From a virus (Duplodnaviria > Heunggongvirae > Uroviricota > Caudoviricetes): a stretch of 8,388 bases of DNA. The DNA is taken from IMG/VR virus record IMGVR_UViG_3300028952_000009; one strand, given 5' to 3'. The notes below the pieces were generated by a model. The model worked only from the letters and a program-made list of their open reading frames with translations, was not told the origin of the DNA and made no database searches. Positions 1 through 8,388 of the stretch are shown here, piece after piece; positions within the stretch are counted from its first letter, which is position 1; every line of letters starts with the position of its first letter. A program made the position numbers and the translations under genes.

Positions 1-36
1 TGAACAGGAGGGACAGCTGATAGAAACAGAAGCCAC
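1..36 (-). CDS. insA: IS1 InsA, first 12 codons only (gene runs off the left edge)
   Basis: Minus strand 36 to 1 reads GTG GCT TCT GTT TCT ATC AGC TGT CCC TCC TGT TCA, i.e. (M)ASVSISCPSCS, matching the recalled InsA N-terminus with a GTG start. Too short to be in the ORF track. Confidence 0.65.
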   Translation of the reverse strand, partial: MASVSISCPSCS

Positions 37-91
37 TGGAGCACCTCAAAAACACCATCATACACTAAATCAGTAAGTTGGCAGCATCACC
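1..91 (-). mobile_element. IS1: IS1 insertion sequence, terminal 91 bp; the element continues beyond the left window edge
   Basis: Positions 69-91 read ATCAGTAAGTTGGCAGCATCACC, the reverse complement of the IS1 terminal inverted repeat GGTGATGCTGCCAACTTACTGAT. Positions 1-68 continue as the reverse complement of the adjoining IS1 interior, including the insA start. The match is to recalled IS1 sequence, not a search. The element boundary is at 91/92 and the flanking bases 92-100 are TGATGGTTA. Confidence 0.8.
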
Positions 92-228
92 TGATGGTTA
101 TATCGGGAAAAGGTTACAGAAGGCTGAGGGCATAATTGAAGGGATGTTAATGGCATTAGATATCCGGTTAGAGATGGATATCGTTGTTAATAACTCTAAT
201 TAATATGCCAATTGTTTACTAAAAATTA

Positions 229-254
229 TTAAAAATGGGGCGTTGAGACGCCCC
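229..254 (-). terminator. Rho-independent terminator for the nmpC / IpeX-like transcript
   Basis: GGGGCG (237-242) and CGCCCC (249-254) form a 6-bp GC stem with a 6-nt loop. On the minus strand the stem is followed directly by a U-rich run (complement of 226-236, AUUUUUAAUAAUUUUU). It lies about 140 nt downstream of the nmpC stop. Confidence 0.6.
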
Positions 255-342
255 CAAAAATAAAGGGTAATATATAACAGAAGGTTTATATAGTTAGAAG
301 CAAGGTTGTGCTTCTAAAGGAAGTGGCTTGAGGGAGCCACTT

Positions 343-382
343 ATATGTTGGGGAGGCAAAGCCTCCCGCAACATATCTTTTT
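343..382 (+). terminator. Plus-strand intrinsic-terminator-like hairpin abutting the 3' end of nmpC
   Basis: ATATGTTGGGGAGGC (343-357), loop AAA (358-360), GCCTCCC-g-CAACATAT (361-376, g368 bulged), followed on the plus strand by CTTTTT (377-382). On the minus strand no U-tract follows it, so its terminator polarity is opposite to nmpC. Confidence 0.45.
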
Positions 383-392
383 CGTAATCAGA

Positions 393-1475
393 TTAGAACT
401 GATACACCAGACCTACAGCGACGATGTCGTCGGTATCAATACCAGCTGTTTTGGTAAACTTACTATCGTCAATTAAGTTGATTTTGTAATCAACAAAAGT
501 GGACATGTTTTTATTAAAGTAGTAAGTAGCACCGACATCGACATACTTGACTAAGTCTCGGTCACCATGAACACCAAGGTCTTTACCTTTTGACTGAAGG
601 TAAGCAACAGATGGTCGCAGACCGAAGTCAAACTGATATTGTGCTACTGCTTCAAAGTTTTGTGCTTTGTTTGCAATATGGTTATTACCAAAAACGGTCA
701 TATTCTGAGTTTCAGAATATGTGGTAGCCAGATAGATATTGTTCGCATCATATTTCAGGCCTGCAGCCCATACTTCCGCATTTTTGCCGGAGGCATTGAA
801 TTTGCTCTTACCATAGGCGACCTGACCGTCAGTGCGATCTGATTTAGCATAGGTTGCACCCACGCCGAATCCTTCATACTCATAAGTAGTGGAGAAACCG
901 AAACCATCACCATTGGCTTCAGTTACGTCAGTGCGGTCATTTTTACCCTGATACTGAGCAGCAAAGTTCAGGCCATCGACCAGACCAAAGAAGTCGTTGT
1001 TACGATAGGTTGCAACACCAGTGGTGCGACCAGTCATGAACACATCTGTTTGGGTCCAGGTATCGCCACCGAATTCTGGCAGAACGTCAGTCCACGCACC
1101 GATGTCGTATGCTACACCGTAGTTACGGCCGTAATCGATTGAGCCGTAGTCACCGAATTTCAGGCCTGCAAATGCAAGACGGGTTTTGTCTTTGGAGGAA
1201 CCTTGAGATTCAGCGCGGTTGCCTTTGAATTCATATTCCCACTGACCGAAACCAGTCAGTTGATCGTTGATTTGGGTTTCACCTTTGAAGCCAAGACGGG
1301 CATAAGTAGTATCACCATCATCTGCATCGTTAGAGGAAAAGTAGTGCTTGGCATTAACTTTCCCGTACAGATCCAGCTTGTTACTGTCTTTATTATAAAT
1401 TTCAGCTGCCTGAGCAGACATCGCCATCAGTACTGATGCAGCTACAGCAGAAATTGCCACTGTTAATTTTTTCAT
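393..1475 (-). CDS. nmpC: Outer membrane porin of the OmpC/OmpF/PhoE family; prophage NmpC/Lc-type porin, apparently intact (360 aa)
   Basis: Full ORF from the track. N-terminal signal peptide [23 protein letters not shown] followed by AEIYNKD; porin-typical motifs; C-terminal aromatic ...VGLVYQF. SD-like AAGGG a few nt upstream of the ATG (complement of 1476-1490). Location between the Q region and the lysis cassette matches DLP12 nmpC and PA-2 lc. No IS5 interruption as in K-12. Confidence 0.92.
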
Positions 1476-2063
1476 CGTGAGCCCTTTTTTTTGAACTATT
1501 ATTAAAAAATGATGTCACTGCGCGATAAATATTCATCTAATCAATGTGATTATTTCAAGATGTAAGTTTTAGTTTCTCATTTAATTTGTGAAGTAGATCT
1601 CTATTTTTATCTGAACTTTTTCTATCGAAACCTATTTATGGCTCTTATTTGAACAAAAATAAACCTATTAGCTAATTTATATTAATGGCTGTTATTTATG
1701 GGGGTTCTATAATTCAGTGGTTTAATTTAAATCAGCTAAAAATAACGCCGGAAATTATTTATTGGTTATTTGTTGAGGTTTTCTTATATATTTGTGGTGG
1801 TGTTTTGAACACTCGGTAGCATTCTCATAAATATCATTCAGTGGTTTACGTACGTAAAAAATTGGTTATGCTGTTAAGAGTGGTTACTTCGTCACACAGC
1901 TTAAACCCGCCGTCGAGCTGGTTTTTCCATTTTTTGAGTCTCGATATTAGCTGATAACTCAATACCTGAGTTATTCACTGACTCCGAGTCTGTTACGTTT
2001 CTGCTTTTTTGCGATACGTTGTATTCCCTCAATTTACACCCGCTTTGTCTGCGAGGTGGGGTT

Positions 2064-2279
2064 ATGAAATCCATGGATAAGTTAACAACGGGTGTCGCCT
2101 ATGGCACCTCAGCAGGTAGTGCCGGTTACTGGTTTTTACAGCTGCTCGATAAAGTCACGCCCTCACAGTGGGCAGCAATAGGTGTGCTGGGTAGCCTGGT
2201 ATTTGGCCTGCTGACGTACCTGACAAACCTTTATTTCAAGATTAAAGAAGATAAGCGCAAGGCTGCGAGAGGTGAATAA
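2064..2279 (+). CDS. essD: Class II holin (pinholin), phage 21 S-type, 71 aa with dual-start motif
   Basis: ATG at 2064 is preceded by GAGGTGGGG (2053-2061). The product [26 protein letters not shown]... has two transmembrane segments (a Gly/Ala-rich SAR-like TMD1 and a hydrophobic TMD2) and a charged C-terminus. Met1-Lys-Ser-Met4 is the antiholin/holin dual start known for S21. The track ORF begins at 2019, but no RBS supports that start. Confidence 0.9.
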
Positions 2280-2776
2280 TGCCTCCATCATTACGAAAAG
2301 CCGTTGCTGCTGCTATTGGTGGCGGAGCAATTGCTATAGCATCAGTGTTAATCACTGGCCCAAGTGGTAACGATGGTCTGGAAGGTGTCAGCTACATACC
2401 ATACAAAGATATTGTTGGTGTATGGGCTGTATGTCACGGGCATACAGGAAAAGACATCATGCTCGGTAAAACGTATACCAAAGCAGAATGCAAAGCCCTC
2501 CTGAATAAAGACCTTGCCACGGTCGCCAGACAAATTAACCCGTACATAAAAGTTGATATACCGGAAACAACGCGCGGCGCTCTTTACTCGTTCGTTTACA
2601 ACGTGGGCGCTGGCAATTTCAGAACATCGACGCTTCTTCGCAAAATAAACCAGGGCGATATCAAAGGCGCATGTGATCAGCTACGTCGCTGGACATATGC
2701 TGGCGGTAAGCAATGGAAAGGTCTCATGACTCGTCGTGAGATTGAGCGTGAAATCTGTTTGTGGGGTCAGCAATGA
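2279..2776 (+). CDS. rrrD: SAR (signal-anchor-release) endolysin, T4-lysozyme-like muramidase, phage 21 R-type, 165 aa
   Basis: Start ATG overlaps the holin stop (TAATG at 2277-2281). N-terminal weakly hydrophobic Gly/Ala-rich SAR domain [20 protein letters not shown]. Glu35 (2381-2383) and Asp44 (2408-2410) are at T4L-like spacing. Residue 50 is Ala (gct, 2426-2428); see findings. Confidence 0.9.
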
Positions 2777-3234
2777 ACAGAGTAACCGCGATTATCTCCG
2801 CTCTGGTTATCTGCATCATCGTCTGCCTGTCATGGGCTGTTAATCATTACCGTGATAACGCCATTACCTACAAAGCCCAGCGCGACAAAAATGCCAGAGA
2901 ACTGAAGCTGGCGAACGCGGCAATTACTGACATGCAGATGCGCCAGCGTGATGTTGCTGCACTGGATGAAAAATACACGAAGGAGTTAGCTAATGCGAAA
3001 GCTGAAAATGATGCTCTGCGTGATGATGTTGCCGCTGGTCGTCGTCGGTTGCACATCAAAGCAGTCTGTCAGTCAGTGCGTGAAGCCACCACCGCCTCCG
3101 GCGTGGATAATGCAGCCTCCCCCCGACTGGCAGACACCGCTGAACGGGATTATTTCACCCTCAGAGAGAGGCTGATCACTATGCAAAAACAACTGGAAGG
3201 AACCCAGAAGTATATTAATGAGCAGTGCAGATAG
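2773..3234 (+). CDS. rzpD: Rz i-spanin (inner-membrane spanin subunit), 153 aa
   Basis: ATG at 2773-2775 overlaps the endolysin stop TGA at 2774-2776 (ATGA). N-terminal [23 protein letters not shown], then a coiled-coil-rich periplasmic domain. The track calls a GTG at 2761, which I reject because it lies inside the endolysin and the ATG gives the canonical overlap. Near-identical to recalled lambda Rz. Confidence 0.9.
2993..3175 (+). CDS. rzoD: Rz1 o-spanin lipoprotein, embedded in the +1 frame of Rz, 60 aa
   Basis: ATG at 2993 with AGGAG (2981-2985) 7 nt upstream. Lipoprotein signal [20 protein letters not shown] with lipobox VVG-C20; mature part is proline-rich (PPPPP). Lies wholly inside the Rz ORF in another frame. 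Confidence 0.85.
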
Positions 3235-3259
3235 AGCTGCCCATATCGATGGGCAACTC
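3234..3259. terminator. Stem-loop between convergent Rz and bor; possible weak bidirectional terminator or RNA 3'-end stabiliser
   Basis: TGCCCAT (3238-3244), loop ATCG, ATGGGCA (3249-3255), extendable with one mismatch to GAG/CTC (3234-3236 with 3257-3259). No U-tract on either strand, so termination efficiency is doubtful. Confidence 0.3.
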
Positions 3260-3265
3260 ATGCAA

Positions 3266-3559
3266 TTATTGTGAGCAATACACACGCGCTTCCAGCGGAG
3301 TATAAATGCCTAAAGTAATAAAACCGAGCAATCCATTTACGAATGTTTGCTGGGTTTCTGTTTTAACAACATTTTCTGCGCCGCCACAAATTTTGGCTGC
3401 ATCAACAGTTTTCTCCTGTCCAATTCCCGAAACGAAGAAGTGATGGGTGATGGTTTCCTTTGGTGTTACTGCTGTCGGTTTGTTTCCAACAGTAAACGTC
3501 TGTTGAGCACATCCTGTAATAAGCATTGCCAGAGCGGCAGAAAACAACATTTTTTTCAT
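3266..3559 (-). CDS. borD: Bor lipoprotein (lambda bor family, serum-resistance-associated outer membrane lipoprotein), 97 aa
   Basis: Minus-strand ATG at 3557-3559 with AGGA about 7 nt upstream (complement of 3566-3569). Lipoprotein signal MKKMLFSAALAMLITGC (lipobox ITG-C). The track ORF extends to 3607, but the upstream Mets lack a signal-peptide context. Convergent with Rz, as in lambda. Confidence 0.9.
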   Translation of the reverse strand: MKKMLFSAALAMLITGCAQQTFTVGNKPTAVTPKETITHHFFVSGIGQEKTVDAAKICGGAENVVKTETQQTFVNGLLGFITLGIYTPLEARVYCSQ

Positions 3560-3919
3560 CTTATTATCCTGCATTGTTAAAAACGGCAGAATCCTATGTG
3601 ACAACAATTAAACGATAGTTAAATGGATTGATGAAAATTAAAACTATATAGGTGGATGCTCAGCCTATTGGAGGAGGGGGGGCACTCAGAATCCTGTGGA
3701 ATGAAATAAACCGCTCTTTCTGTCCATTACCCTTTTAGCTGCGCTGTATCGTCGCCGTATTCCCGCATTAACCATGACCGTAGCCCGACGGGGAATTCCT
3801 TCTGCGTGAGTGTGCGGGAATAATCAAAAACGATGCACACCGGGTTTTACTGTGCTGACAGACGCAGGGTTACCCTCATAGTCGCTTTTCCGGTGCGATG
3901 GTGGAAGAAACCGGGATGT

Positions 3920-4114
3920 TTATTCATCATCACTCTGGATTGATGTATATGCTCTCTTTTCTGACGTTAGTCTCCGACGGCAGGCTTCAATGACCCAGGC
4001 TGAGAAATTCCCAGACCCTTTTTGCTCAAGAGCGATGTTAATTTGTTCAATCATTTGGTTAGGAAAGCGGATGTTGCGGGTTGTTGTTCTGCGGGTTCTG
4101 TTCTTAGTTGACAT
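3920..4114 (-). CDS. ylcI: Small YlcI/YnfO-family (DUF3950) protein, 64 aa; predicted ribbon-helix-helix-like DNA-binding fold
   Basis: Full ORF from the track. Basic N-terminus (KNRTRRTTTRNIRF) followed by a strand-helix-G-x-S-helix pattern (NIRFPNQMIEQINIALEQKGSGNFSAWVIEACRRRL) typical of RHH proteins. Position immediately upstream of cos matches ylcI in DLP12 and an equivalent small ORF at the right end of lambda, by recollection. The RHH assignment is inference from sequence pattern. Confidence 0.75.
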   Translation of the reverse strand: MSTKNRTRRTTTRNIRFPNQMIEQINIALEQKGSGNFSAWVIEACRRRLTSEKRAYTSIQSDDE

Positions 4115-4313
4115 GAGGTTGCCCCGTATTCAGTGTCGCTGATTTGTATTGTCTGAAGTTGTTTTTACGTTAAGTTGATGCAGATCAATTAATACGATAC
4201 CTGCGTCATAATTGATTATTTGACGTGGTTTGATGGCGTAGATGCACGTTGTGACATGTAGATGATAATTATTATCATTTTGCGGGTCCTTTCCGGCGAT
4301 CCGACAGGTTACG

Positions 4314-4325
4314 GGGCGGCGACCT
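4314..4325. other. cosN: lambda-type cohesive-end site (12-nt GGGCGGCGACCT); cosQ-like sequence lies about 20-35 bp upstream (about 4280-4296)
   Basis: The sequence ACAGGTTACG|GGGCGGCGACCT|CGCGGGTTTTCGC at 4304-4338 matches the recalled junction of the lambda right and left ends around its 12-nt cohesive end. 4170-4313 resembles the recalled lambda right-end sequence. Confidence 0.8.
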
Positions 4326-4352
4326 CGCGGGTTTTCGCTATTTATGAAAATT

Positions 4353-4478
4353 TTCCGGTTTAAGGCATTTCCGTTCTTCTTCGTCGTAACTTAATGTTTT
4401 TATTTAAAATACCCCCTGAAAAGAAAGGAAACGACAGGTGCTGAAAACGAGCTTTTGGGCCTCTGTCGTTTCCTTTCT
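4353..4478. promoter_or_regulatory. cosB: terminase small-subunit (Nu1) binding sites R3, R2, R1, with an AT-rich IHF-type site between R3 and R2
   Basis: R1 CTGTCGTTTCCTTTCT (4463-4478) and its exact inverted copy AGAAAGGAAACGACAG (4423-4438, R2) are seen directly. A degenerate R3-like AAGGCATTTCCGTTCT is at 4353-4368. The AT-rich stretch 4381-4420 is a plausible IHF site. Spacing to cosN and to the Nu1 start (4503) matches the lambda layout. Confidence 0.65.
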
Positions 4479-4502
4479 CTGTTTTTGGCCGTGGAATGAA
4501 CA

Positions 4503-5078
4503 ATGGAAGTCAACAAAAAGCAGCTGGCTGACATTTTCGGTGCGAGTATCCGTACCATTCAGAACTGGCAGGAACAGGGAATGCCCGTTCTGCGAGGCGG
4601 TGGCAAGGGTAATGAGGTGCTTTATGACTCTGCCGCCGTTATAAGATGGTATGCCGAAAGGGATGCTGAAATTGAGAACGAAAAGCTGCGCCGGGAAGTT
4701 GAAGAACTGCGGCAGGCCAGCGAGACAGATCTCCAGCCAGGGACTATTGAGTACGAACGCCATCGACTTACGCGTGCGCAGGCCGACGCACAGGAGCTGA
4801 AAAATGCCAGAGACTCCGCTGAAGTGGTGGAAACCGCATTCTGTACTTTCGTGCTGTCGCGGATCGCAGGTGAAATTGCCAGTATTCTCGACGGGATCCC
4901 CCTGTCGGTGCAGCGGCGTTTTCCGGAACTGGAAAACCGACATGTTGATTTCCTGAAACGGGATATCATCAAAGCCATGAACAAAGCAGCCGCGCTGGAT
5001 GAACTGATACCCGAACACGGCACTGGTCGGCGTGCAGGTGGACTCGGAGCAGTTCGGCAGCCAGCAGGTGAGCCGTAA
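4503..5078 (+). CDS. nohD: Terminase small subunit Nu1 homolog, C-terminally truncated by a deletion: about 170 Nu1-like residues, then a 21-residue out-of-frame tail read from J-derived DNA
   Basis: ATG at 4503. [54 protein letters not shown]... is the Nu1 winged-HTH DNA-binding N-terminus. Nu1 similarity runs to ...[10 protein letters not shown] (through about 5011); the rest ([21 protein letters not shown]) is unrelated. The gpA-interacting extreme C-terminus is therefore lost. Confidence 0.88.
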
Positions 5079-7854
5079 TTATCATCTTCGCGGGCGCATT
5101 CTGCAGGTGCCGTCGAACTATAACCCGCAGACGCGGCAATACAGCGGTATCTGGGACGGAACGTTTAAGCCGGCATACAGCAACAACCCGGCCTGGTGTC
5201 TGTGGGATATGCTGACCCACCCGCGCTACGGCATGGGGAAACGTCTTGGTGCGGCGGATGTGGATAAATGGGCGCTGTATGTCATCGGCCAGTACTGCGA
5301 CCAGTCAGTGCCGGACGGTTTTGGCGGCACGGAGCCGCGCATCACCTGTAATGCCTACCTGACCACGCAGCGTAAGGCGTGGGATGTGCTCAGTGATTTC
5401 TGCTCGGCGATGCGCTGTATGCCGGTATGGAACGGGCAGACGCTGACGTTCGTGCAGGACCGACCATCAGATAAGGTGTGGACCTATAACCGCAGTAATG
5501 TGGTGATGCCGGATGATGGCGCGCCGTTCCGCTACAGCTTCAGCGCCCTGAAGGACCGCCATAATGCCGTTGAGGTGAACTGGATTGACCCGAATAACGG
5601 CTGGGAGACGGCGACAGAGCTTGTTGAAGATACGCAGGCCATTCTCCGTTACGGTCGTAACGTCACGAAGATGGATGCCTTTGGCTGTACCAGCCGGGGG
5701 CAGGCACACCGCGCCGGGCTGTGGCTGATTAAAACGGAGCTGCTGGAAACGCAGACCGTGGACTTCAGCGTGGGTGCCGAAGGGCTTCGCCATGTACCGG
5801 GCGATGTCATTGAAATCTGCGATGATGACTATGCCGGTATCCGCACCGGCGGGCGCGTGCTGGCGGTAAACAGCCAGACCCGGACGCTGACGCTCGACCG
5901 TGAAATCACGCTGCCATCTTCCGGCACCACGCTGATAAGCCTGGTTGACGGGCAGGGGAGTCCGGTCAGCGTGGAGGTTCAGTCCGTCACCGACGGCGTG
6001 AAGGTGAAAGTGAGCCGTGTTCCTGACGGCGTTGCTGAATACAGCGTATGGGGGCTGAAGCTGCCGACGTTGCGCCAGCGCCTGTTCCGCTGCGTGAGTA
6101 TCCGTGAGAACGACGACGGCACGTATGCCATCACCGCCGTGCAGCATGTACCGGAAAAAGAGGCCATCGTGGATAACGGGGCGCACTTTGACGGCGACCA
6201 GAGCGGCACGGTAAATGGTGTCACGCCGCCAGCGGTGCAGCACCTGACCGCAGAAGTCACCGCAGACAGCGGGGAATACCAGGTGCTGGCCCGCTGGGAT
6301 ACGCCGAAGGTGGTGAAGGGCGTGAGCTTCCTGCTTCGCCTGACCGTGGCAGCGGATGACGGCCGTGAGCGACTGGTCAGCACGGCCCGGACGACGGAAA
6401 CCACTTACCGCTTCACACAACTGGCTCTGGGGAACTACAGGCTGACAGTCCGGGCAGTAAATGCGTGGGGGCAGCAGGGCGAGCCGGCGTCGGTATCGTT
6501 CCGGATTGCCGCACCGGCAGCGCCGTCGCAGATTGAGCTGACACCGGGGTATTTTCAGATAACCGCCACGCCGCATCTTGCGGTTTATGATCCGACGGTA
6601 CAGTTTGAGTTCTGGTTCTCGGAAAAGCGGATTGCGGATATCAGGCAGGTTGAAACCACAGCACGCTATCTTGGCACGGCGCTGTACTGGATAGCCGCCA
6701 GTATCAATATCAAACCGGGCCATGATTATTATTTTTACATCCGCAGTGTGAACACCGTTGGCAAATCGGCATTCGTGGAGGCTGTTGGCCAGCCGAGTGA
6801 TGATGCATCCGGCTATCTGAATTTTTTCAAAGGAGAGATAGGGAAAACCCATCTGGCTCAGGAGTTGTGGACGCAGATTGATAACGGTCAGCTTGCGCCT
6901 GACCTGGCGGAAATCAGAACGTCCATCACGGATGTCAGTAATGAAATCACGCAGACCGTCAATAAGAAACTGGAAGACCAGAGTGCGGCAATCCAGCAGA
7001 TACAGAAGGTTCAGGTTGATACAAATAATAACCTGAACAGCATGTGGGCTGTGAAGCTGCAGCAGATGCAGGACGGACGCCTTTATATCGCGGGTATTGG
7101 TGCCGGTATTGAGAATACCCCTGACGGTATGCAGAGTCAGGTGCTGCTGGCGGCGGACAGGATTGCGATGATTAATCCTGCGAATGGCAACACAAAGCCG
7201 ATGTTTGTTGGTCAGGGCGATCAGATATTCATGAACGAAGTGTTCCTGAAATATCTGACGGCTCCCACCATTACCAGCGGCGGTAATCCTCCGGCATTTT
7301 CCCTGACACCGGACGGGCGGCTGACGGCGAAAAATGCCGATATTAGCGGTAACGTGAATGCGAACTCCGGGACGCTCAACAACGTCACGATTAACGAGAA
7401 CTGCCGGGTTCTGGGAAAACTGTCCGCGAACCAGATTGAAGGCGATCTCGTTAAAACAGTGGGCAAAGCTTTCCCCCGGGACTCCCGTGCACCGGAGCGG
7501 TGGCCATCAGGGACCATTACCGTCAGGGTTTATGACGATCAGCCGTTTGACCGGCAAATTGTTATTCCGGCGGTGGCATTCAGTGGCGCTAAACATGAGC
7601 AAGATCATACTGATATCTACTCCTCATGCCGTCTGATAGTACGAAAAAACGGTGCTGAAATTTATAACCGAACGGCTCTGGATAATACGCTGATATATAC
7701 GGGTGTTATTGATATGCCTGCAGGCAGTGGTGTAATGACACTGGAATTTTCTGTATCGGCATGGCTGGTAAATGGCTGGTATCCCACAGCAAGTATCAGC
7801 GATTTGCTGGTTGTGGTGATGAAGAAAGCCACTGCAGGCATCATGATTAGCTGA
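5008..7854 (+). pseudogene. J: 5'-truncated tail-tip / host-specificity protein J (central fibre); about 948 codons open and in frame, but no native start or promoter
   Basis: From 5008 ([51 protein letters not shown]...) the frame matches recalled lambda J from roughly residue 185 onward and stays open to the stop at 7852-7854. A TGA at 5005-5007 sits just upstream in this frame. The track's 5032 start is a GTG inside J with no SD. The frame is +1 relative to Nu1, so no fusion protein is made. Confidence 0.85.
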
Positions 7855-7872
7855 ATTTTATAACCCATAACG

Positions 7873-7899
7873 GGCGTCAGAAATGACGCCTTTTTTATT
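7873..7899 (+). terminator. Rho-independent terminator immediately after J
   Basis: GGCGTCA (7873-7879), loop GAAA (7880-7883), TGACGCC (7884-7890), then TTTTTTATT (7891-7899). Confidence 0.7.
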
Positions 7900-7920
7900 G
7901 CAGAAAAGCGAGAGGTAATT

Positions 7921-8388
7921 ATGCGTAAACTTTATGCCGCCATTTTGTCCGTAGCCATTTGTCTGGCCGTATCCGGTGCGCCTGCATGGGCGTCTGAACA
8001 TCAGTCCACGCTGAGCGCGGGGTATCTTCATGCCTCGACGAACGTTCCCGGCAGCGATGATCTGAACGGGATTAACGTGAAATACCGTTATGAGTTTACG
8101 GACACGCTGGGGCTGGTGACGTCATTCAGTTATGCCAATGCCAAAGATGAGCAAAAAACGCATTACAGCGATACCCGCTGGCATGAAGATTCCGTGCGTA
8201 ACCGCTGGTTCAGCGTGATGGCGGGGCCGTCTGTGCGCGTGAATGAATGGTTCAGCGCGTATGCGATGGCGGGTATGGCTTACAGCCGTGTGTCGACCTT
8301 CTCCGGGGATTATCTCCGCGTAACTGACAACAAGGGGAAAACGCACGATGTGCTGACCGGAAGTGATGACGGTCGCCACAGCAACACG
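7921..8388 (+). CDS. lom: Lom outer membrane protein (Ail/Lom/OmpX family), 3' partial (first 156 codons; gene runs off the right edge)
   Basis: ATG at 7921 with GAGAGG/GAGG (about 7908-7914) upstream. Signal peptide MRKLYAAILSVAICLAVSGAPAWA followed by SEHQSTLSAGYLHASTN...; near-identical to recalled lambda Lom. Gene order J then lom as in lambda. Confidence 0.9.
   Translation, partial: MRKLYAAILSVAICLAVSGAPAWASEHQSTLSAGYLHASTNVPGSDDLNGINVKYRYEFTDTLGLVTSFSYANAKDEQKTHYSDTRWHEDSVRNRWFSVMAGPSVRVNEWFSAYAMAGMAYSRVSTFSGDYLRVTDNKGKTHDVLTGSDDGRHSNT

What the first reader, a model, noticed from the sequence alone, without database searches (positions are those of the whole stretch)
4503..7854. Single deletion junction fuses Nu1 codon ~170 to J codon ~185, removing the entire head and tail morphogenesis block
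Nu1-like sequence runs through ...GAACTGATACC (to about 5011) and J-like coding sequence begins at TAC CCG AAC ACG (5008 onward). The two share TACC at 5008-5011, so the join looks like a microhomology-mediated illegitimate deletion. By lambda gene order it removed everything from the Nu1 3' end through A, W, B, C, Nu3, D, E, FI, FII, Z, U, V, G, T, H, M, L, K, I and the J N-terminus. The J remnant still has about 948 codons without a single stop, which is unexpected for non-coding DNA of that length. That suggests a recent deletion, or that the fragment is expressed or selected.
Basis: partly seen in the sequence, partly recalled or inferred. Interest (0 to 1): 0.6.

Follow-up and report, generated by a model that had tools for sequence, protein, structure and literature searches.

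The report
Cryptic prophage deletion scar, recurrent breakpoint
This is the already annotated internal deletion of a DLP12-type dead prophage of E. coli, in which a truncated packaging gene abuts a truncated tail-tip gene; it is ordinary, except that its left breakpoint is a spot where dozens of independent prophage deletions start.

Summary
Window 4314-5011 matches lambda nt 1-699 (cos plus Nu1 codons 1-169/170). Window 5005-6871 matches lambda J from nt 16135. The two share TACC at 5008-5011 with nothing in between. The J breakpoint is codon 212, not ~185. About 15.44 kb (A through I plus the first 211 J codons) is missing.

This is the DLP12-like cryptic prophage of E. coli B, C and Crooks. 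65 of 5,426 complete genomes carry the same junction. RefSeq annotates a 191-aa Nu1 fusion and a J pseudogene "missing N-terminus". In REL606 the remnant fits the published coordinates of ECB_00512, shown to donate sequence to infecting lambda.

The open 948-codon frame is not evidence of selection. It differs from an intact J gene elsewhere by one synonymous base.

One thing was unexpected. The left end (…GAACTGATA|, lambda nt 697) is a nucleotide-precise hot spot. At least 20 other deletions in other prophages start there and end at different places. Every right end that could be traced lies at a TA. No mirror-image junctions were found. The mechanism is unknown. The window's 3' end (from 7868) follows the Qin-like prophage, implying an inversion or misassembly through a 1.3-kb J repeat.

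The parts
1..91 (.). End of an IS1 element abutting the interior of quuD
   Evidence: 100% match to the IS1A end in REL606. The join at window 91 lies inside quuD of E. coli C.
393..1475 (-). Intact nmpC/OmpC-family porin gene of DLP12
   Evidence: 360-aa ORF, annotated as porin OmpC in E. coli C. It is interrupted by IS1 in B and by IS5 in K-12.
2064..3234 (+). Lysis cassette essD-rrrD-rzpD
   Evidence: Coordinates transferred from the E. coli C annotation. 94% identity to lambda Rz and neighbouring sequence.
3266..3559 (-). bor/iss lipoprotein gene
   Evidence: Annotation of E. coli C and REL606.
3920..4114 (-). ylcI
   Evidence: Annotation.
4280..4490 (+). Intact cos region. cosN has lambda nt 1 at window 4314, cosQ lies upstream and cosB downstream.
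   Evidence: Window 3903-4313 matches lambda 48092-48502 and window 4314 onward matches lambda nt 1 onward, without a break.
4503..5009 (+). Nu1 (terminase small subunit, nohD-like), codons 1-169
   Evidence: 98% identity to lambda Nu1.
4503..5078 (+). 191-aa fusion ORF: Nu1 1-169 plus 22 residues read from J DNA in the wrong frame
   Evidence: It is RefSeq protein WP_000453609.1, 'terminase small subunit'.
5008..5011 (.). Junction microhomology TACC. TA at 5008-5009 corresponds to lambda nt 696-697, the recurrent deletion start point.
5008..7854 (+). J (tail tip) remnant, codons 212-1159 of a 1159-codon J type. It is an open frame and an annotated pseudogene, and it fits the published coordinates of REL606 ECB_00512.
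6551..7867 (+). Part of the J remnant that is base-for-base identical to the J fragment of the Qin-like prophage of the same strains (a 1,317-bp repeat, inverted in REL606)
7872..7897 (+). Terminator-like hairpin plus T run after the J stop (Qin-type sequence variant)
7921..8388 (+). 5' part of a lom (Ail/Lom) gene. In B and C strains it belongs to the Qin-like prophage, not to DLP12.

Best explanation
The feature is the internal deletion scar of a DLP12-type cryptic lambdoid prophage.

An ancestor with lambda gene order lost 15.44 kb. The loss covers the last 12 Nu1 codons, genes A through I, and J codons 1-211. It occurred by illegitimate joining at a 2-4-base match (TA, or TACC). What remains is a truncated Nu1 fused out of frame to J DNA, followed by a promoterless J pseudogene.

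The J frame is open only because the copy is young, or is kept fresh by recombination with live J genes. The only demonstrated biological role of the remnant (assuming, as the published coordinates indicate, that it is REL606 ECB_00512) is passive: it is a homologous donor from which infecting lambda can copy host-range sequence.

The left breakpoint is not random. Lambda nt 697 (…GAACTGATA|CC) behaves as a fixed DNA end. It has been joined, always rightward and always at a TA, to many different downstream positions in independent prophages.

Inferred, not shown: a site-determined 3' end on the top strand, ending …GATA-3', is rejoined or re-primed downstream through terminal microhomology of 2-4 nt. 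Such an end could come from a nick, from replication run-off at a nick, or from an abortive transposition or recombination reaction. What makes the end is unknown.
For: Junction and deletion size.

DLP12 identity and existing annotation. 65 genomes share the junction.

Youth of the remnant:
- 24 of the 26 records that contain the whole probe are listed at 100.0% identity.
- It shows one synonymous difference from an intact 1159-aa gpJ.
- The divergent copy carries a clustered recombination patch and is still open.

Donor role: Borin et al. report recombination between lambda J 1545-2796 and ECB_00512 882-2217, which doubled phage fitness on resistant cells. Both coordinate offsets (663 and 579) fit a start at GTG 5038 and the 84-nt insertion.

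Hot spot:
- About 20 different right ends follow GATGAACTGATA at the DNA level. They lie in A, Z, J, lom and stf/tfa, and sit in prophages at the DLP12, Qin and bioA-ybhB loci.
- All 17 right ends with a traceable parent end in TA, with upstream extension to ATA or GATA.
- 42 of the 120 best Nu1 homologues diverge right after I169, with 24 distinct tail starts, a few of them allelic variants. No neighbouring residue has more than 5 proteins or 4 tails.
- In unbiased samples, 4 of ~23 junction types over 2.4 kb sit on this TA.
- No mirror-image junction was found among the ~180 loci that carry the right-hand sequence.
- No junction was found in 64 loci with the GAAAT[ACT]ATA allele, against 13 of 126 for the CTGATA allele, Fisher p = 0.004.
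Against: - No enzyme or structure that would create a fixed end at nt 697 was identified.
- Minor left ends occur 1-5 nt away (residues 165-176), so the end is not absolutely fixed.
- A few right ends are also reused with different left ends: Z nt 8064 and an stf site. This fits a set of preferred TA sites as well as a single fixed end.
- The allele comparison is confounded by phage lineage and host.
- Whether the window's junction arose in one step is unknowable from the sequence.
Confidence: 0.85

Rival explanations
1. The J remnant is a domesticated, expressed gene. An N-terminally truncated tail-tip protein would be made from GTG 5032/5038 or a downstream ATG and kept open by selection, for example as a receptor-blocking or anti-phage factor.
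For: - The 940-948-codon frame is open in all copies examined, including the 99.1% copy.
- Late read-through transcription from the DLP12 Q/pR' region could reach it (inference).
- A terminator-like hairpin follows the stop.
Against: - It shows one synonymous difference from an intact J, so there has been no time for decay and openness carries no information.
- Variation comes as a recombination patch, not as point mutations.
- No promoter-like site above chance and no convincing ribosome-binding site lies at the candidate starts.
- The Qin-like copy of the same segment is cut by IS3 in REL606.
- The DLP12-like locus was lost in 10 of 12 long-term evolution populations.
- RefSeq marks it as a pseudogene.
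Confidence: 0.05
2. The recurrent breakpoint is the footprint of abortive transposition. An insertion sequence of the copy-out-paste-in type sat just right of nt 697. The 3'-OH left in the flanking DNA primed synthesis that switched to a downstream microhomology, as proposed for IS-excision-enhancer events. This removed the IS together with variable flanking DNA.
For: - The geometry matches the published model: a fixed flank 3'-OH, 2-4-nt microhomology, and one direction only.
- IS elements are abundant in these prophages (IS1, IS3, IS5, IS903).
Against: - No locus among ~300 fetched and no fusion tail among 120 proteins shows an IS at or next to nt 697.
- The events lie in prophages at several chromosomal sites, so repeated insertion at one base pair would be needed.
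- The known IS30 hot spot of lambda is at 33244-33498.
Confidence: 0.1
3. A site-specific DNA enzyme uses the Nu1 site as a primary or pseudo-site and TA-containing secondary sites as partners. It could be a serine recombinase or a TA-targeting transposase. It could also be a Tn3-family transposase acting on the terminal-repeat-like sequence at lambda 700-737.
For: - The crossover is always within TA.
- Right sites show modest extra biases against all TA sites of lambda: G at +4 (p = 7e-5) and A at -10 (p = 1e-4).
- Lambda 700-737 is the best match in the 24-kb left arm to the gamma-delta terminal repeat (23/38) and a joint best match to the Tn3 repeat (22/38). Its GGGG outer end lies 3 nt right of the TA and points the right way for polarity.
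Against: - Known Tn3-family reactions keep the repeat and delete outward, the opposite of what is seen.
- The mirror-image products expected from a recombinase are absent.
- The 23/38 match is only slightly above the chance maximum for 48,000 positions (other sites reach 21) and was noticed post hoc.
- No candidate enzyme is linked to the carriers.
Confidence: 0.12
4. There is no special end. The junctions are ordinary slipped-strand or short-repeat deletions, and nt 697 is favoured because its surroundings form quasi-repeats with many downstream sites, or a hairpin that stalls replication.
For: - Some right ends are good quasi-repeats: J 17306 GGATAACGGGG and Z 8064 TTAACCGCGTTGCT, against GATACCGGGGTTGCT.
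- Weak hairpins GCAGCC/GGTTGC and GCAAC/GTTGC span the two recurrent left ends.
- The motif TA-N4-5-GTTGC occurs 6 times in the left arm, and 3 of those are recurrent end points.
Against: - The used right TA sites are not more similar to the left site than the other 640 TA sites (p = 0.2). The best quasi-repeats of lambda are not used.
- The hairpins fold no better than shuffled sequence (z = 0.19 and -0.25).
- The GTTGC motif was derived from the same sites. Its other three occurrences were not seen among the right ends joined to nt 697 that were examined.
- Slippage over 15-20 kb is not expected.
Confidence: 0.2

Closest known systems
DLP12 cryptic prophage of E. coli K-12 (nohD-aaaD'-'tfaD region)
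   Same: - Same prophage backbone and gene order: quuD, nmpC, essD, rrrD, rzpD, bor, ylcI, cos, Nu1 homologue.
- 91-98% DNA identity.
- The morphogenesis block is also lost by an internal deletion that starts just right of cos.
   Different: - K-12 keeps all of Nu1 and about 100 codons of A. Its deletion runs from lambda nt 1018 into a tail-fibre assembly gene.
- It is therefore an independent deletion. Neither form can be derived from the other.
- K-12 also has ybcV and ybcW between bor and ylcI, and an IS5 in nmpC.
ECB_00512 of E. coli B REL606 (Borin et al., bioRxiv 10.1101/2020.11.02.365361)
   Same: - The same sequence: 100.0% identity over window 4800-7867.
- The published alignment coordinates fit the window.
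- The paper describes it as a relict of a past phage infection that recombines with lambda J.
   Different: - The passages of that paper retrieved here do not mention the Nu1 junction, its breakpoint or its recurrence.
- In the window the DNA after the J stop is of the Qin type, not the REL606 DLP12 type.
Nu1-J junction in the Qin prophage of E. coli 17MR471, and the other junctions at lambda nt 697
   Same: The identical left end, …GATGAACTGATA|, and a TA at the right-end parent.
   Different: - The right end is J codon 61 rather than codon 212.
- It sits in a different prophage and chromosomal site.
- Other members end in A, Z, J, lom or tail-fibre genes.
Int-promoted deletions of lambda, and nick-site deletions of rolling-circle replicons (own knowledge: Parkinson and Davis 1971; Michel and Ehrlich 1986)
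   Same: One fixed end point set by a site-specific DNA enzyme, with variable partner end points.
   Different: - No att core, no known nick site and no responsible enzyme was found at nt 697.
- The resemblance is recalled from memory, not tested.

Membership tests
DLP12-type cryptic lambdoid prophage | Gene order quuD-nmpC-essD-rrrD-rzpD-bor-ylcI-cos-nohD, with high identity to the K-12 element | tested here: met
   the same order, and 91-98% identity to MG1655 DLP12.
DLP12-type cryptic lambdoid prophage | Chromosomal position next to appY-ompT, with integration at argU | not testable with these tools
   The window does not reach either prophage end. In E. coli C, REL606 and F1022 the same junction lies upstream of appY-ompT. 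The window's own right flank is Qin-type.
Lambda Nu1 terminase small subunit (Pfam PF07471) | Full-length 181-aa protein including the C-terminal segment after residue 169 | tested here: not met
   Residues 1-169 are 98% lambda-like at the DNA level. Residues 170-191 are out-of-frame J sequence. Homologues carry PF07471.
Lambda J / TipJ tail-tip protein | Complete gene with its N-terminal 211 codons and a start signal | tested here: not met
   Homology starts at J codon 212. The intact relative has 1159 codons. RefSeq notes 'missing N-terminus'.
Microhomology-mediated illegitimate deletion | Both flanks are contiguous with the deleted block in an intact relative, a short shared sequence lies at the join, and no filler DNA or mobile element is present | tested here: met
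   TACC is shared, nothing is inserted, and 15,439 bp is present in L006.
Gene under purifying selection (domesticated remnant) | Excess of synonymous over non-synonymous change accumulated after the truncation | tested here: inconclusive
   There is almost no post-deletion variation. The 18 synonymous and 7 non-synonymous differences in F1022 lie mostly in one imported patch.
IS-excision-enhancer type IS-plus-flank deletion | An IS of a copy-out-paste-in family at the fixed end before the event | tested here: not met
   No IS-occupied allele was seen among ~300 loci and 120 proteins. The survey is not exhaustive.

The most novel reading that the evidence does not exclude
Lambda-type Nu1 contains a nucleotide-precise, one-directional deletion start point, the TA at nt 696-697 and 14 bp upstream of the A start codon. 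Some site-specific process there creates a DNA end that is healed at downstream TA dinucleotides. This process, rather than random decay, would be a major route by which E. coli lambdoid prophages lose their terminase and morphogenesis genes and become cryptic. The DLP12 junctions of E. coli B and C would be products of it. The K-12 DLP12 junction, at a second recurrent site (nt 1017/1018), may be a related case.
Probability: 0.5. Interest if true: 0.65.

Novelty: already known. Interest (0 to 1): 0.4.

Why it matters
The junction and the J remnant themselves add little. They are annotated, and if the remnant is ECB_00512, as the published coordinates indicate, its role as a recombination donor for lambda J is published.

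The recurrence of the left breakpoint could matter. Prophage inactivation is usually pictured as random mutational decay filtered by selection. A defined sequence at which many independent deletions begin, all running toward the structural genes, would mean that part of prophage 'domestication' is mechanistically directed. It would also give a simple, testable model: a 200-bp lambda segment in a deletion reporter.

The 1.3-kb identical J repeat shared by the DLP12-like and Qin-like prophages is also a substrate for megabase inversions. The window itself appears to be such a recombinant.

Tried and rejected
- **Restriction cut at ↓CCNGG/CCSGG (698).** Rejected. It is the second or third such site from cos, and one of 84-114 in the left arm.
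- **Chi-limited RecBCD resection.** There is no Chi in the window or in lambda's left arm. The nearby GCTGGATG has two mismatches.
- **Hairpin-induced stalling.** The local folds are no better than shuffles.
- **IS30 hot spot.** The lambda hot spot LHS is at 33244-33498.
- **Mirror-image junctions** (variable left end joined to TA|CCGGGGTTGC). None were found. The 65 hits were allelic Nu1 variants.
- **Left end 719 followed by a non-T base in IMG/VR.** No hits.
- **Quasi-repeat guidance of right-end choice.** Not supported.
- **TA-N4-5-GTTGC motif.** It is post hoc. Its other three sites were not seen among the right ends joined to nt 697 that were examined.
- **Tn3/gamma-delta terminal-repeat likeness of lambda 700-737.** The match is real, but the geometry of known reactions does not fit.
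- **lambda Int core site, Cre/lox, Hin/Gin sites, resolvase site I, RusA (↓CC), EcoBI, FokI.** Compared by eye from memory. None fits both partners or the cut position.
- **dN/dS across carriers.** Not feasible, because the copies are identical.
- **Literature searches for a described Nu1 deletion hot spot.** Nothing was found in the held library.
Full report
**What the window is.** The 8,388-bp window matches the DLP12-like cryptic prophage of E. coli B, C and relatives at 99.9% over positions 1-7899. 64 of 5,426 complete genomes hold at least 80% of it. The gene order is:
- an IS1 end and a quuD fragment;
- an intact nmpC porin gene;
- essD-rrrD-rzpD, bor/iss and ylcI;
- cos, a Nu1 homologue and a J fragment.

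RefSeq already annotates the two parts of the finding. One is a 191-aa 'terminase small subunit' (WP_000453609.1, window 4503-5078). The other is a 'phage tail tip protein, incomplete, missing N-terminus' pseudogene (window 5008-7854).

**The observation.**
- Against lambda, window 4314-5011 aligns to nt 1-699 at 97.9%, and window 5005-6871 aligns to nt 16135-18002 at 94%.
- Window 3903-4313 matches lambda 48092-48502, so cos is intact and continuous.
- Nu1 reads …GAT GAA CTG ATA CC|GGGG and J reads …GTG C TAC C|CGAAC. The product …CTGATACCCGAAC shares only TACC (5008-5011).
- Nu1 is cut within codon 170.
- J is cut at codon 212 of lambda, not ~185. This J type has 1159 codons, because of a 28-residue insertion and a divergent C-terminal domain.
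- The frames differ by one base. Nu1 therefore runs on for 22 codons to a stop at 5076-5078, and the J frame has no start of its own.
- An intact lambda-like prophage in strain 2021CK-00607 (L006) carries both flanks with the complete A-to-J block between them. It also carries the same tail-fibre proteins downstream. The deletion measures 15,439 bp there.

**Is the open frame meaningful? No.**
- A 3,068-bp probe across the junction and the J remnant is contained whole in 26 listed records, and 24 of them are listed at 100.0% identity.
- The remnant differs from the intact gpJ of L006 by a single synonymous base, T/C at 6300.
- The most divergent carrier (F1022, 99.1%) differs at 25 codons, 18 synonymous and 7 non-synonymous. 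23 of the 25 lie in 5950-6433. This is the signature of a patch copied from another functional J allele, and that copy is still open.
- There has therefore been no time for stops to arise, and a dN/dS test has no power.
- No promoter-like site above chance lies upstream. The only clear signal is a terminator-like hairpin at 7872-7891.

**What is already known.**
- The remnant appears to be ECB_00512 of REL606. Borin et al. report that lambda J (1545-2796) recombined with ECB_00512 (882-2217) during coevolution. The exchange raised phage fitness, doubling it on malT- ompF- cells. The two offsets, 663 and 579, fit a start at GTG 5038 and the 84-nt insertion in this J type.
- De Paepe et al. showed the same kind of exchange for the K-12 DLP12 cos-nohD region.
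- The DLP12-like locus was lost in 10 of 12 long-term evolution populations.
- K-12 DLP12 carries a different deletion. Full Nu1 and about 100 codons of A are joined at lambda nt 1018 to a tail-fibre assembly gene. The K-12 and B/C forms are therefore independent derivatives of a more complete ancestor.

**The unexpected part: a recurrent left breakpoint.** While comparing junctions I found the same left end, …GATGAACTGATA| (lambda nt 697), joined to different right ends:
- J codon 61 in the Qin prophage of strain 17MR471;
- a tail-fibre gene in a prophage at the bioA-ybhB locus;
- the 3' end of A in the DLP12 of strain C1.

Targeted scans of IMG/VR and of metagenomes raised the count to about 20 distinct right ends, in A, Z, J, lom and stf/tfa. 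For all 17 with an identifiable uninterrupted parent, the deleted side ends in TA. The match with the left site extends only upstream, to ATA or GATA, except for two chance CC extensions, one of which is the window's TACC.

Two less biased samples agree:
- IMG/VR loci were collected with anchors inside Nu1. 4 of ~23 distinct junction types over lambda 220-2600 sit on this TA.
- Among the 120 best protein homologues of Nu1, 52 are full length. 42 diverge immediately after I169, with 24 distinct tail starts, a few of them allelic variants. The tails derive from portal, E, FI, U, V, J, lom, stf, tfa and even an integrase gene. No neighbouring residue has more than 5 proteins or 4 tails.

The process is polar. 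Among ~180 loci that carry TA|CCGGGGTTGCTGAG, none has a foreign left flank.

It also appears allele-specific. Nu1 alleles reading GAAAT[ACT]ATA show 0 junctions in 64 loci, against 13 of 126 for CTGATA (p = 0.004). This comparison is confounded by lineage.

A second recurrent left end exists at nt 1017/1018, with three right ends including the K-12 DLP12 junction. A few right ends (Z nt 8064 and one stf site) are reused with different left ends.

**Mechanism.**
- Shown: a fixed left end, an obligatory TA at the partner, 2-4 nt of upstream-only microhomology, and one direction.
- Inferred: a top-strand 3' end …GATA-3' is generated at this site and is joined or extended at a downstream TA. This is the geometry proposed for microhomology-primed strand switching.
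- Not identified: what makes the end.

Candidate sources of the end that I tested:
- A restriction cut does not fit.
- Chi is absent.
- Local hairpins fold no better than shuffled sequence.
- The IS30 hot spot of lambda lies elsewhere, at 33244-33498.
- No IS-occupied allele was seen.
- Guidance by quasi-repeats is not supported. The used TA sites are no more similar to the left site than other TA sites, p = 0.2.
- Compared with all 651 TA sites of the lambda late region, the right sites show modest extra biases: G at +4 and A at -10.
- Lambda 700-737 is the best match in the 24-kb left arm to the gamma-delta terminal repeat (23/38), with its GGGG end 3 nt right of the TA. However, known Tn3-family reactions would keep that repeat rather than delete it. 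I found nothing in the papers read that changes this.

I therefore leave the enzyme open and rank the alternatives in the rival list.

**Single deletion or not.** The window's junction could have arisen directly from an intact prophage. It could also have arisen by a second deletion from the 17MR471-type junction (…CTGATA|TCTCC…GTGCTA|CCCGAAC), which gives the identical sequence. The data cannot decide between these.

**Side observation on the window itself.**
- From 6551 to 8388 the window is 100% identical to the Qin-like prophage of REL606: the J 3' end behind an IS3, followed by lom.
- In B and C strains the DLP12-like and Qin-like J fragments are identical over 1,317 bp. They differ only after the J stop, and there the window follows Qin.
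- No complete genome in the collection holds the window's arrangement; best coverage is 94%.
- In REL606 the two copies are inverted and about 1.05 Mb apart. The window therefore comes either from a genome with an inversion through this repeat or from an assembly join within it.

**Verdict.** The reported junction is real, ordinary in kind and already annotated. Its codon assignment needed correction, and the suggestion of expression or selection has no support. The added value is the recurrent, TA-anchored, one-directional breakpoint at Nu1 nt 697. I could not find it described, and it deserves a systematic census and a simple genetic test.

Noticed in passing
window 6551-8388; L004 8152-9989; L002: The 3' 1,317 bp of the J remnant is identical to the J fragment of the Qin-like prophage of B and C strains. 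After the J stop the window continues with Qin-type sequence and lom, not with the DLP12-type tail-fibre gene. This implies an inversion of about 1 Mb, or a misassembly, through the repeat. No complete genome in the collection has this arrangement.
   Followed up: partly
window 1-91: An IS1 end abuts the interior of quuD (the DLP12 Q antiterminator gene), so quuD is truncated in the source genome. nmpC, which is interrupted by IS1 in E. coli B and by IS5 in K-12, is intact here.
   Followed up: partly
L005 9341-9663 (K-12 DLP12); L052; L278: The K-12 DLP12 junction (lambda nt 1018, …CCCTTAT|) is a second recurrent left end. Three different right ends were found, each with a TAT match in the parent.
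   Followed up: partly
L003 (lambda) 700-737: GGGGTTGCTGAGTGAATATATCGAACAGTCAGGTTAAC is the best match in lambda's 24-kb left arm to the gamma-delta terminal inverted repeat (23/38). It is a joint best match to the Tn3 repeat (22/38). It starts 3 nt right of the deletion hot spot. Its significance is unknown.
   Followed up: partly
L003 697, 1017, 8064 (also 5882, 15313, 18980): The motif TA-N4-5-GTTGC occurs six times on the top strand of lambda's left arm. Three of these are the recurrent junction end points. This is a post hoc observation. The other three were not seen among the right ends joined to nt 697 that were examined.
   Followed up: partly
L010 7438-11681 (E. coli strain C1 DLP12): An integrase-bearing, satellite-like element (integrase, BRO-N, Icd-like and primase genes) sits between a truncated portal gene and a truncated J gene, inside a DLP12 that also carries a junction of Nu1 nt 697 to the 3' end of A.
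   Followed up: no
L011 5060-5130 (Qin nohA): The K-12-type Qin nohA is itself a fusion. Nu1 homology stops at lambda nt 719 (…GAATATA|) and joins a tail-fibre-region sequence. That same sequence is also found joined to nt 697 (L173) and to nt 880 (L305).
   Followed up: partly
window 6808-7854: From about J residue 810 onward the remnant diverges from lambda J, with a 28-residue insertion and 30-60% identity. Its receptor-binding end is therefore of a different specificity type. That type is shared with intact phages such as PhiR46_1 (96.6% DNA identity).
   Followed up: partly
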